From contig CM074515.1 in NCBI GenBank assembly GCA_037379345.1, positions 8,060,001 to 8,124,000 on the forward strand: a DNA stretch of 64,000 bases, read 5' to 3'. A program made the position numbers. The first letter of the stretch is position 1. Every line of letters starts with the position of its first letter. This document shows positions 54,001 through 57,000 of the stretch, piece by piece. The stretch is from Perna viridis (lineage: Eukaryota).

Positions 54001-57000
54001 AAATCCCTACCCAGTACAAAATGATCAATTATGAATCATTCACACATTTTTATGCCTTTATCAAGTATATCAACTGTATAGGAACCATCAATGGGAAATC
54101 AAACCATTTTTACATGTTTTAAGTTAGCTTTAGAACCATACCTAGCAGCTCCTCTCAGTAGATCCCTGTCATGTTTACCACAGATCCACCATGACGGAAG
54201 ATCATATGATGTTTGACACAACTTGATTCTCTCATCTAATTTGGGATGTGCTAAAGTCTCCGTACGTATCTTATTGAGGAGATCAATCCTGGCAAGAGAT
54301 CGACTAGCTCTTTCTTCTGTGATAGGTTCCACATATATATTGTTAGGAGGTAGGGCTATTAAGAAAAGGAAGAAAGTATGTGCACATAAATTAAAATCAA
54401 CTTAATCCTGAATTTTTTTAAAATATTTTCTTGCATACTTAAAATGTCCAATTATAAAACAAATAAGCATATTTTATGAAGTGGTTCTTACAATAAATGA
54501 AGTGATACTATAACAGCTACTGTTTTTAACAGGCAATAATAGTTACTTTGAGGTAACAACATGTTCTATATTTATCTCATTCTACATATATTGTACTTCA
54601 GTTATATTGGTTCAAGTGCCATCATAGCTAACATTTACGAAATTCATAATAATGCACATCAGGTATTCTTCTATAGAATAGTTTTTGTTTGATCACTTAC
54701 CATCATCATCATTTTTAAACTTTTTACAGACTCTCATACACATATGGTAGAAAGCTTGAAAATATTCTGTCAAGGTATCATCATGTTTCTTCTCGAGTCT
54801 TGCTAATGACCTGAATCTATCCCACTTGTACCTTCCTGTAAACAGGTCAAACTCTACACCAAATGTTGATATGATTCTGTAGAAATCAGATTCTTCTCTC
54901 CTTGTCCAATGGCTGAAAATACAACAATTATTTGATATATAGCTTTTTATTAGTTAATACAAAGATGTCTATTGTGTAATTCATTTTCCATTTCTAATTT
55001 CATTGGTGAACATAAATTATCTTCCTCTTTTTAGTACTTCTCTCACAATTATAAAGTCATTCAAAAGCACTAAAAATCAAGATCTTATCAAGAAAAGAAG
55101 ACTCTAATGATCCACAATATGACAATGAGCTTCTTCCATAAGGTGTCTAGGGAAGACCAGATCAAAACATGCAAGCTAAATATACAACTTCAGCCATTAA
55201 ATTAAAAGTATTTGATCACAATACATTTAGATATACATAAACAGCATGCAAAATTGAAAGTACAAATAGGACCATATCTTGATTCTAAGTGTTCTGTCAG
55301 AAATACTGCGAAATCACTAAACTCATAAGACTTTCCAACCAGCACACCTGGTAATAGGAGGTCTTCAGTATTAGCATGGCAATTCATCATGAACACTCGA
55401 GGTTGATAAGAAAAATTTCAGACTAACTCTATAGAATGTAGTTGGCAATAAATATTTTGTATTCATTTTTCAACCCAAAAATTCCACAAATGAAACCATA
55501 GACATTAATAACAAAAGTTGGATAAAACAAAAGATTGGATGCCAAGCACTTGTAGCAAATGGATAGACTGTCATAAGTTTGAAGAATAAAGCATGTTCAA
55601 AAATTTAAACCCATCACAACATATACAGATATTATTGACAATATTGGAATTAGCATTATAAAAAAATATACAGCCATCAGAATAAATGTAAAGCCACACA
55701 CCGTAAACTGAAAAGAAAATGAATGTTACGATTCATGCATATTCTGATATCATACCTTTCCCATAATCCGAAAAAACTGTCAAATAAATAGGAAAATATT
55801 ACTTGCAATGACTGAAAGTTTTTTTTTCCGGTAAGTTTAACGTTTGTTTTGTATGATATTGTAAAATGAAGATTCAAGTGCCAAACCATATAACTGATTT
55901 ACAGGGATGGTTTTATGAGGTCATCAAACAAAGCGGAAATTGGTAAAATTGGAAATAAAAAAACAGTAAAAAAAGGAATCCAGATTTCAATTAGCGGAAT
56001 TCCCCTAAAAAGTGGAAAAATATCAACTCTAGATTTACAAAACATACAAAACTACTTTAATCAGTATGGTAATTTGCACCCTTGAAAAAAATTGTTTAAA
56101 ATTTCAGGTGTATGTTGGTATCTAACAAATGATGACAAACAGTAAGGAAAATTGTGAAATTTAACAAATATGCTTAGATCTTGAAAAATACCAGACCAAA
56201 TATGACACCATTTCATGTATTTCAAGGAGAACAGCTGCTAAACCTTGAATTTGGAAAAGTTAAACAAAGATATGACCTTCATTTCATGATCAGAAACCTA
56301 ATAATACTGAAGGTCAAACTGTTCCCTGAAGCCAATTTACTAAGTACCGATAACCCAACCCTACAAAATCATCATACCCTGTTTAATAAGTAGTATGAAT
56401 GAACTACAAAGGCAGGGAAAAGACAAGAAATGTAAAATATACCTCTGTTGATACTGAATTTTTTCATCTTCTTTGTATCTATTCATCATGTCATACCTTT
56501 CTCTTCTCTCCATTCTCTGTAAACCATACAGTATCAATATAGCCGCACAATAACAATAACAAACATATGGAAAATTATCAACTGTTAATAAACTCAATTA
56601 TGTTAGTTTACATATGTAAATACACAAATCATTTAGGTTTGGATTTAGAAATATAGTTGGTGGAGTTCAATTCTGAAACCATTCTATTTTCAAGAGCTTA
56701 GCAGTGTGCACTTCTGTAAAACAAGCACTACTTTATTTCGGATGCACAGACATATGACATATGTATGGACTGATATATGTATGAACATACCCTAGCTCTC
56801 TGAGCATCCTTTAACATTTGTCGTTTATGATTCCGTTGAAAGCTAGTGATGATTCTCCTTATACGTGTATTTAGATCTGACATGGATGGCCAGGGTAGTT
56901 TTTCCTCATCATCACATTCCATAGCAGATGGTGTGGAAAGGTCTTTGGCAGCATTACTGTTCTCCTGACTAGAGAGAACGGATGTACAGGTATCCTCATC

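What the first reader, a model, noticed from the sequence alone, without database searches (positions are those of the whole stretch)
55288..55397. U6-A53 guide snoRNA (SNORD8/9) in a CHD7/8-family intron: apparently ancient host-gene linkage
Seen: textbook C, D' and D boxes, a 7-bp terminal stem and an 11-nt U6 complement; the +5 rule points to the A in AUUAGC (A53). From recall: human SNORD8 and SNORD9 lie in CHD8 introns, and Drosophila kismet hosts a U6-guide snoRNA. If so, the host-snoRNA pairing dates from the bilaterian ancestor. It also shows this gene is a real snoRNA host, which supports the array interpretation.
Basis: partly seen in the sequence, partly recalled or inferred. Interest (0 to 1): 0.65.

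Follow-up and report, generated by a model that had tools for sequence, protein, structure and literature searches.

The report
U6-A53 guide snoRNA in CHD intron
A small guide RNA gene that should direct methylation of one key adenosine in the spliceosome's U6 RNA sits inside an intron of a CHD8/kismet-type gene, the same kind of gene that hosts its human counterparts; it is an ordinary member of a known family.

Summary
At 55397-55288 there is a 7-bp terminal stem (8 bp with a G-U pair), a C box AUGAUGA, an 11-nt antisense element, a D' box CUGA one base later, and a D box CUGA. Published U6 probes for human and fly contain the same 11-mer. The fifth base upstream of D' pairs with the A of the AGC triad, which is A53.

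Rfam gives no hit at gathering score. In E-value mode the locus matches snoU6-53 (RF00377) over the full model at 29.3 bits, against a cut-off of 36. E is 1.6e-4 locally and 0.026 for the whole window.

The RNA lies in sense orientation in a 1530-nt GT-AG intron. The next exon encodes the HTH_CHD6-9 domain (E 1.9e-34), and a BRK exon follows further downstream.

Human SNORD8 and SNORD9 are hosted by CHD8. Fly kis hosts a Northern-verified C/D snoRNA, but its target is not stated in the text I could read.

Verdict: a new, sub-threshold member of a known family in the expected host. The ancient-linkage claim is plausible but not proven, because the source taxon, the fly target and the intron homology are all untested.

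The parts
55288..55397 (-). Whole box C/D snoRNA candidate, 110 nt from stem arm to stem arm. The Rfam match spans 55289-55395.
   Evidence: GC is 40% against 30.3% for the host intron, and there is no second copy in the window.
55391..55397 (-). 5' arm of the terminal stem, AGUGUUC. G55398 can add a G-U pair.
55384..55390 (-). C box AUGAUGA, a perfect RUGAUGA.
55370..55380 (-). Antisense element GCCAUGCUAAU, complementary to U6 A50-C60. U55373 is the fifth base upstream of D' and faces A53.
   Evidence: Identical to the Rfam snoU6-53 consensus.
55365..55368 (-). D' box CUGA, separated from the antisense element by one base (A55369).
55327..55364 (-). Predicted internal hairpin between D' and the C' region. 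Boundaries are approximate.
   Evidence: Minimum-energy and centroid structures. Prediction only.
55320..55326 (-). Candidate degenerate C' box AUGAGUU. An alternative is GUGAUUU at 55317-55311.
   Evidence: Read. Inference only, no test.
55297..55300 (-). D box CUGA.
55288..55294 (-). 3' arm of the terminal stem, GAACACU, two bases after the D box.
54913..56442 (-). Host intron: 1530 nt, GT at 56442-56441, AG at 54914-54913, phase 2. The snoRNA starts 1045 nt after the 5' splice site and ends 375 nt before the next exon.
   Evidence: Splice sites were read from the sequence and from frame continuity. There is no transcript evidence.
56443..56516 (-). Upstream host exon, encoding RMERRERYDMMNRYKEDEKIQYQQ plus a split codon.
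   Evidence: Inferred from the open frame and AG/GT sites. The containing ORF 56361-56597 has no Pfam match.
54701..54912 (-). Downstream host exon encoding the HTH_CHD6-9 tri-helical domain.
   Evidence: Pfam PF23078, E 1.9e-34, 118.1 bits, on ORF 54693-54953. Boundaries.
45332..45499 (-). Host-gene exon encoding a BRK domain.
   Evidence: Pfam PF07533, E 6.1e-17. Best solved-structure matches are human CHD7 (E 3.8e-11) and CHD8 (E 1.8e-8) BRK domains.

Best explanation
This is an intron-encoded box C/D small nucleolar RNA of the snoU6-53 kind, the counterpart of human SNORD8/SNORD9 (mgU6-53).

Inferred biogenesis: it is transcribed as part of the pre-mRNA of a CHD6-9-type (kismet/CHD8-like) chromatin-remodeller gene. 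It is released from the 1530-nt intron by splicing and exonucleolytic trimming, and protected by its 7-8 bp terminal stem and by the core proteins bound to the C/D kink-turn.

Inferred action: as an RNP containing fibrillarin, its 11-nt element upstream of D' pairs with U6 snRNA across the AGC triad (A50-C60 in human numbering). Fibrillarin then methylates the 2'-OH of the residue paired to the fifth guide base, which is A53.

Shown here: the sequence anatomy, the register of the guide, the resemblance to the Rfam family, and the sense-strand intronic position in a CHD6-9 gene.

Inferred only: expression, RNP assembly, methylation of U6 in this organism, and common descent of the host association with the human CHD8-SNORD8/9 arrangement.
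For: - Anatomy with perfect C, D' and D boxes and a 7-bp stem. The same candidate was recovered blind by an architecture scan, with an 8-bp stem.
- Rfam snoU6-53 (RF00377) is the best match at the locus: full model 1-110, 29.3 bits, E 1.6e-4 in 401 nt and 0.026 in the whole window across all 4227 families. The window sequence AUGAUGA-A-UUGCCAUGCUAAUACUGA-A differs from the consensus in only two positions of that stretch.
- Its length of 107-110 nt matches the 110-position model.
- The composite motif was never seen in 100 shuffles.
- The 11-mer is antisense to U6 in human and fly probes, and the register gives A53.
- The family's function is documented: Am53 is guided by SNORD8/9 with fibrillarin (passages).
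- Host gene: HTH_CHD6-9 at E 1.9e-34 and BRK at E 6.1e-17 on the same strand, with the BRK exon closest to human CHD7/CHD8.
- Canonical GT-AG intron with a consistent reading frame.
- Human SNORD8/9 are hosted in CHD8 (tables).
- Local GC is 40% against 30.3% for the intron, and the locus is single-copy in the window.
Against: - There was no match at Rfam's curated gathering score: 0 matches in the whole window, and 29.3 bits against 36.
- The central part of the model, about 70 nt, does not align.
- Folding energy is not distinguishable from shuffles (z -1.13).
- There are no expression data, no U6 sequence from this organism and no orthologue from a related species, so conservation of the locus is untested.
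- The C' box is degenerate, and the 19 nt upstream of the D box have no assigned target.
- The snoRNA ends 375 nt upstream of the 3' splice site. From recall, that is much further than the roughly 70-80 nt considered optimal for splicing-coupled assembly in mammals.
Confidence: 0.8

Rival explanations
1. It is a decayed or silent relic. The sequence descends from a snoU6-53 gene but is no longer expressed or no longer assembles into an active RNP, and the active copy lies elsewhere in the genome.
For: The Rfam score is sub-threshold and the centre of the model is unaligned. The C' box is degenerate. The distance to the 3' splice site is long, at 375 nt. In the same window, 2 of the 7 array units show that C/D copies here do decay, since they have lost the D box.
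Against: Every element needed for function is intact: the C, D' and D boxes, the stem, and an 11/11 guide in the exact register. It is in sense orientation within a spliced intron. It has no poly(A) tail or flanking duplication that I noticed, and no other copy in the window.
Confidence: 0.1
2. It is a genuine U6-A53 guide, but its presence in a CHD6-9 gene arose independently of the human CHD8-SNORD8/9 arrangement, through snoRNA mobility between broadly expressed hosts ('constrained drift').
For: Hoeppner and Poole 2012 (PMC3511168, passages) found that intronic snoRNA-host associations are not stable across the eukaryote tree, and that snoRNAs in equivalent introns are often not orthologous. 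Deryusheva et al. 2020 (PMC6984369, passages) report differences in intron position even among vertebrates. Intron-level homology was not tested here.
Against: The same snoRNA family in the same host-gene family in two lineages is unlikely to arise by chance among thousands of possible hosts. Fly kis also hosts a box C/D snoRNA. Some snoRNAs do keep orthologous hosts across taxa.
Confidence: 0.12
3. It is a chance assembly of short motifs in AT-rich intron sequence, with no biological meaning.
For: The 11-mer alone, at up to 1 mismatch, is expected 0.8 times per window. C/D-like architectures with a 5-bp stem occur by chance about 0.9 times per window. Two such unsupported hits exist, at 43700-43618 and 4279-4153. 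The fold z-score is unremarkable.
Against: The composite motif appeared in 0 of 100 shuffles. There is a full-length covariance-model match to exactly the family predicted by the guide (E 0.026 window-wide over 4227 families). The stem of 8 bp is rare by chance (null mean 0.10 for stems of 7 bp or more). It lies on the sense strand of the expected host gene.
Confidence: 0.02
4. It is a dual-function guide. Besides U6 A53, the 19 nt between the candidate C' box and the D box direct methylation of a second RNA, such as an rRNA site.
For: There is a 19-nt spacer upstream of a perfect D box. Dual U6/28S guides are known for another U6 guide (Tycowski 1998, as cited in passages of PMC3884663).
Against: No target was identified. 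The rRNA and snRNA sequences of this organism are not available to me, and no second target for SNORD8/9 is listed in the tables I read.
Confidence: 0.1

Closest known systems
Rfam RF00377 snoU6-53 (human SNORD8 = mgU6-53, SNORD9 = mgU6-53B, mouse MBII-28)
   Same: Box C/D architecture. The C box-guide-D' segment is near-identical to the family consensus. The 11-nt guide has the same register on U6 A53. The length is about 110 nt. The location is intronic, in sense orientation, in a CHD6-9-family gene.
   Different: It scores 29.3 bits, below the curated 36-bit cut-off, because the central ~70 nt do not align. There is one copy in the window, whereas the human CHD8 gene has two. The host is a CHD6-9-type gene whose BRK exon is closer to human CHD7 than to CHD8, and it is probably an unduplicated kismet-type gene.
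Drosophila box C/D snoRNA snoCD_02 in kis (Jung et al. 2010, PMC2825236)
   Same: A Northern-verified box C/D snoRNA hosted by the fly CHD6-9 orthologue kismet (Table 4).
   Different: It is about 81-85 nt rather than about 110 nt. Its target is not stated in the main text I read, and its sequence is in a closed supplement.
Rfam RF01279 snoR53Y (a plant family by my recall; the call shows only the family name)
   Same: Its consensus carries CCAUGCUAAU, one spacer base, then CUGA after the C box. That is the same guide core in the same register (alignment).
   Different: The match is only 17.6 bits against a cut-off of 43, with E 1.4. It is a shorter family of 76 positions, and I know of no host relationship with CHD genes.
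Other U6 methylation guides (SNORD7/mgU6-47, SNORD10/mgU6-77, SNORD67, SNORD94)
   Same: The same class of RNA and the same substrate (tables and passages).
   Different: They have different guide sequences, target positions and host genes. None matched this locus.

Membership tests
Box C/D snoRNA (class) | C box RUGAUGA near the 5' end and D box CUGA near the 3' end, brought together by a terminal stem | tested here: met
   AUGAUGA at 55390-55384, CUGA at 55300-55297, and a 7 bp Watson-Crick stem plus one G-U pair.
Box C/D snoRNA (class) | Internal D' and C' boxes | tested here: inconclusive
   D' is a perfect CUGA at 55368-55365. C' is only a degenerate candidate, AUGAGUU or GUGAUUU, read by eye.
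snoU6-53 (RF00377; SNORD8/9) | Antisense element of 10 nt or more, complementary to U6, placing A53 opposite the fifth base upstream of D' | tested here: met
   11 of 11 complementarity to the stretch covered by published U6 probes. The register was counted, and the numbering was checked against the methylated positions listed and against A43 in ACAGAGA. The U6 sequence of this organism itself was not available.
snoU6-53 (RF00377; SNORD8/9) | Score at or above Rfam's curated gathering threshold (36 bits) | tested here: not met
   29.3 bits. No match in gathering mode. This is an operational cut-off trained on the family's seed members, not a functional feature. The match is still full-length and the best at the locus.
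snoU6-53 (RF00377; SNORD8/9) | Intronic, sense-strand location in the CHD8-type host gene | tested here: met
   It lies in a GT-AG intron at 56442-54913 on the minus strand, between an upstream exon and the HTH_CHD6-9 exon. The host was assigned to the CHD6-9 family only. One-to-one orthology with CHD8, and homology of the intron, were not testable.
snoU6-53 (RF00377; SNORD8/9) | Stable expressed RNA bound by fibrillarin/Nop56/Nop58/Snu13, and U6 Am53 dependent on it | not testable with these tools
   No transcript, RNP or modification data are available for this window.
CHD6-9 / kismet subfamily (host gene) | Tri-helical HTH_CHD6-9 domain followed by C-terminal BRK domain(s) on one strand | tested here: met
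   PF23078 at E 1.9e-34 (ORF 54693-54953) and PF07533 at E 6.1e-17 (45332-45499), both on the minus strand. The BRK exon is closest to the human CHD7 and CHD8 structures. The chromodomains and ATPase lie outside the window and were not seen.

The most novel reading that the evidence does not exclude
The pairing of a CHD8-type remodeller gene with the U6-A53 guide may be a selected, very old 'U6 module' rather than a hitch-hiker. Human CHD8 protein is reported to promote U6 transcription through Staf (Yuan et al. 2007; I saw only the title in a reference list). Its introns also carry the guides that methylate U6 at the catalytic AGC triad. If the same transcription unit already carried this guide before the vertebrate CHD6-9 duplications, possibly in the bilaterian ancestor, then production and modification of U6 would have been co-regulated from one locus for more than half a billion years. 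That would run against the general finding that snoRNA-host associations drift.
Probability: 0.2. Interest if true: 0.6.

Novelty: new member of a known kind. Interest (0 to 1): 0.3.

Why it matters
Practically, this is a real-looking U6-A53 guide that standard Rfam annotation at gathering score would miss. A family model rebuilt with such sequences would improve snoRNA annotation outside vertebrates.

Conceptually, if the window comes from a non-vertebrate animal, it adds a data point for an unusually stable snoRNA-host association. The wider view is that such associations drift over deep time. The host protein is itself linked to U6 synthesis (title only).

Neither point changes what is known about how U6 Am53 is made.

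Tried and rejected
- Rfam in gathering mode on the whole window gave nothing.
- PDB sequence searches gave 0 hits with the exon ORF 54099-54401 and with ORF 35193-35411.
- Pfam on 29 minus-strand ORFs of 40 aa or more between 57248 and 63900, run to find upstream CHD exons, gave 0 families. I therefore cannot show that the snoRNA-like array lies in an intron of the same gene.
- A search for a second, SNORD9-like copy found none. The guide pattern is unique, and the best non-self BLAST hit is 20 nt at E 0.053.
- Literature on fly kismet hosting a U6 guide:
  - One search returned 0 papers.
  - One search returned 22 papers, none relevant among the 15 listed.
  - (MeU6) returned only unrelated hits.
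  - One search returned 2 papers. One gives a kis-hosted C/D snoRNA without a stated target.
  - All 'kis' hits in PMC3884663 are the author name Kiss.
- PMC13736004 has no SNORD8, SNORD9 or CHD8. Its 'snord8' hits are SNORD86.
- Papers not held: Deryusheva and Gall 2009, Huang et al. 2005 and Yuan et al. 2007.
- I considered a target for the D-box guide, but no rRNA or snRNA sequence of this organism is available to test it.
- Two further C/D-like architectures, at 43700-43618 and 4279-4153, are rejected as chance. They have 5-6 bp stems, no Rfam support, and a count consistent with the null.

Full report
**What is there.** The feature is real and lies on the minus strand. Read 5' to 3' on that strand:
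- stem arm AGUGUUC, 55397-55391
- C box AUGAUGA, 55390-55384
- three bases
- antisense element GCCAUGCUAAU, 55380-55370
- one base, A55369
- D' box CUGA, 55368-55365
- a predicted internal hairpin, about 55364-55327
- a degenerate C' candidate, AUGAGUU at 55326-55320 or GUGAUUU at 55317-55311
- 19 or 10 nt of possible second guide
- D box CUGA, 55300-55297
- two bases
- stem arm GAACACU, 55294-55288

The stem has 7 Watson-Crick pairs, or 8 with G55398-U55287.

**Is it more than chance?**
- The 11-mer alone is not convincing. It gives 1 match at up to 1 mismatch with 0.80 expected, and 46 of 100 shuffles had a match.
- The composite C box-guide-D' pattern gives 1 match at up to 3 mismatches, and none in 100 shuffles.
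- I wrote a blind scan for C/D architecture: RUGAUGA, a CUGA starting 45-130 nt after the end of the C box, and a terminal stem.
  - At stem >=5 bp it found 6 candidates on the minus strand and 0 on the plus strand. The null mean was 0.89 for both strands together, from 100 first-order Markov simulations with a maximum of 5.
  - At stem >=7 bp it found 2 candidates against a null mean of 0.10.
  - Of the six, one is this locus, three are units of the upstream array, and two (43700-43618 and 4279-4153) have no other support. I treat those two as chance.
- Folding energy is unremarkable: -29.6 kcal/mol, z = -1.13, and 23 of 200 shuffles fold as well. That is usual for C/D RNAs.
- The element has 40% GC in a 30.3% GC intron, and no second copy in the window.

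**Rfam.**
- In gathering mode the whole window gives 0 matches.
- In E-value mode, the 401 nt around the locus give 5 matches with E up to 10.
  - The best is snoU6-53 (RF00377) at 55289-55395 on the minus strand: 29.3 bits against a gathering score of 36, E 1.6e-4, covering model positions 1-110 of 110.
  - Next is snoR53Y at 17.6 bits and E 1.4.
  - The other three have E of 3 or more.
- Over the whole window and all 4227 families, the snoU6-53 match has E 0.026 and is one of 6 matches with E up to 1.
- The aligned 5' part is nearly identical to the family consensus through the C box, guide and D' box. The central ~70 nt do not align.
- So the locus fails Rfam's operational cut-off, but it is recognisably of this family and of the same length.

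**Target and register.**
- Published antisense probes for U6 snRNA contain the window's 11-mer. One is for human (PMC6239192, passages). The other is for Drosophila (bioRxiv 10.1101/2025.04.12.648310, passage). In all, 162 papers in the library hold the string.
- I took the sense strand of the human probe and numbered it from A43 in the ACAGAGA box (PMC5855946, passages).
- With that numbering, the listed ribose-methylated residues that fall within the probe's stretch (A47, A53, G54, C60, C62 and C63) all fall on the right bases.
- The guide therefore pairs with A50-C60. The fifth base upstream of D', U55373, faces A53, the A of the catalytic AGC triad.
- Reviews list Am53 as guided by SNORD8/9 (mgU6-53) with fibrillarin (PMC7960923 table; PMC5855946).
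- I had no U6 sequence from this organism. The inference rests on this stretch being identical in the human and fly probes.

**Host gene.**
- I searched the spliced model exon by exon.
- Of 13 minus-strand ORFs sent to Pfam, 2 had matches:
  - HTH_CHD6-9 (PF23078, E 1.9e-34) on 54693-54953, plus a below-cut-off Myb-like hit on the same ORF
  - BRK (PF07533, E 6.1e-17) on 45332-45499
- The BRK exon matches 11 distinct PDB sequences. The best are human CHD7 (E 3.8e-11) and then CHD8 (E 1.8e-8). By my count from the printed alignment, 23 of 38 residues are identical to CHD7.
- Splice sites read from the sequence give these features:
  - an upstream exon at 56516-56443
  - a GT at 56442-56441
  - an AG at 54914-54913
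  - the HTH exon at 54912-54701, followed by GTAAGT
  - a 1530-nt phase-2 intron with the frame preserved across it
- The snoRNA is in sense orientation. It starts 1045 nt after the 5' splice site and ends 375 nt before the next exon.
- I do not take the window for human. GC is about 31% throughout, the BRK exon is only 23/38 identical to human CHD7, and the family model scores below threshold. The window contains no N.

**The linkage claim.**
- Human side: SNORD8 and SNORD9 both target U6 A53 and both are hosted by CHD8 (tables in PMC6023535, and PMC6466398).
- Fly side: the only support I found is Table 4 of PMC2825236. It lists a novel box C/D snoRNA, snoCD_02, with an 81-nt tag contig and a band of about 85 nt on a Northern blot, in the gene kis. 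No target is stated in the passages I read.
- Searches combining kismet, snoRNA and U6 found nothing else. Searches gave only vertebrate or tunicate mentions. One of these implies that snoU6-53 is present in other ascidians (PMC5006418).
- This does not show that the fly-U6 link is not in print. FlyBase, Rfam species lists and snoRNA databases were not searchable here.
- Hoeppner and Poole 2012 (PMC3511168, passages) argue that snoRNA-host associations are not stable across eukaryotes. Deryusheva et al. 2020 (PMC6984369, passages) note that some snoRNAs nevertheless keep orthologous hosts.
- Shared descent is the most economical reading of finding the same guide family in the same host-gene family. 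Its depth ('bilaterian') depends on the unknown taxon, and intron homology is untested.

**Mechanism, and what is inferred.** The anatomy, register, family resemblance and genomic context are shown. Everything else follows from established knowledge of box C/D RNPs and is inferred here:
- release from the intron by splicing and trimming
- binding of Snu13, Nop56, Nop58 and fibrillarin at the C/D and C'/D' motifs
- pairing with U6, and methylation of A53

From recall (Hirose and Steitz), mammalian intronic C/D snoRNAs far from the branch point tend to rely on longer external stems. The 7-8 bp stem and the 375-nt distance would fit that, but I did not check it.

**What stayed unchecked.**
- The genome collection holds only bacteria and archaea, so I did not scan it.
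- For these reasons, no orthologous loci from other animals could be examined.

**Verdict.** This is a new, sub-threshold member of the known snoU6-53 family in the expected type of host gene. It is ordinary in mechanism. Its modest interest is as evidence for an old host association.

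Noticed in passing
window 60933-63924, minus strand: There are seven dispersed copies of a ~65-nt box C/D-like unit, spaced 199-690 nt apart. Each has a C box AUGAUGA, a nearly invariant 5' guide-like core (one variable position), an internal UGAUGA, a variable stretch, a D box CUGA and a short ACAU/AUGU stem. Five of the 7 keep the D box; the units at 61336 and 63283 do not. Rfam gives only sub-threshold hits: SNORD27 at 30.1 bits (cut-off 52) and SNORD73 at about 25 bits (cut-off 42). The target is unknown. The units are on the same strand as the CHD gene, but no CHD exon was recognised upstream of 57070 (0 of 29 ORFs). 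Their being intronic in that gene is therefore inferred, not shown.
   Followed up: partly
window 12977-13132, 22190-22363 and 22637-22855 (minus strand); possibly 35193-35411: A second gene lies downstream of the CHD gene on the same strand. Three of 146 minus-strand ORFs match Pfam DUF3452 (PF11934), with E values of 1.7e-19, 1.2e-5 and 2.3e-7, in profile order. From my knowledge, this is the N-terminal domain of retinoblastoma-family pocket proteins. ORF 35193-35411 looks like its first coding exon but had no Pfam or PDB hit. From recall only, human CHD9 and RBL2 are neighbours in the same orientation, so this may be conserved microsynteny of an unduplicated CHD6-9 gene.
   Followed up: partly
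window 44087-44203, minus strand: There are sub-threshold Rfam hits to two miRNA precursor families that I recall as plant families: MIR859 at 32.9 bits (cut-off 130) and MIR2600 at 31.8 bits (cut-off 98). This is probably just a long hairpin or inverted repeat in a CHD intron.
   Followed up: no
window 22950-23024, plus strand: There is a sub-threshold Rfam hit to mir-124: 28.8 bits against a cut-off of 49, E 0.029 window-wide. It lies on the strand opposite the Rb-like gene, next to its DUF3452 exon. I did not examine it.
   Followed up: no
window 55301-55319, minus strand: Nineteen nucleotides lie between the candidate C' box and the perfect D box of the U6-53 snoRNA, with no assigned target. 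They could be a second guide or just a spacer.
   Followed up: no
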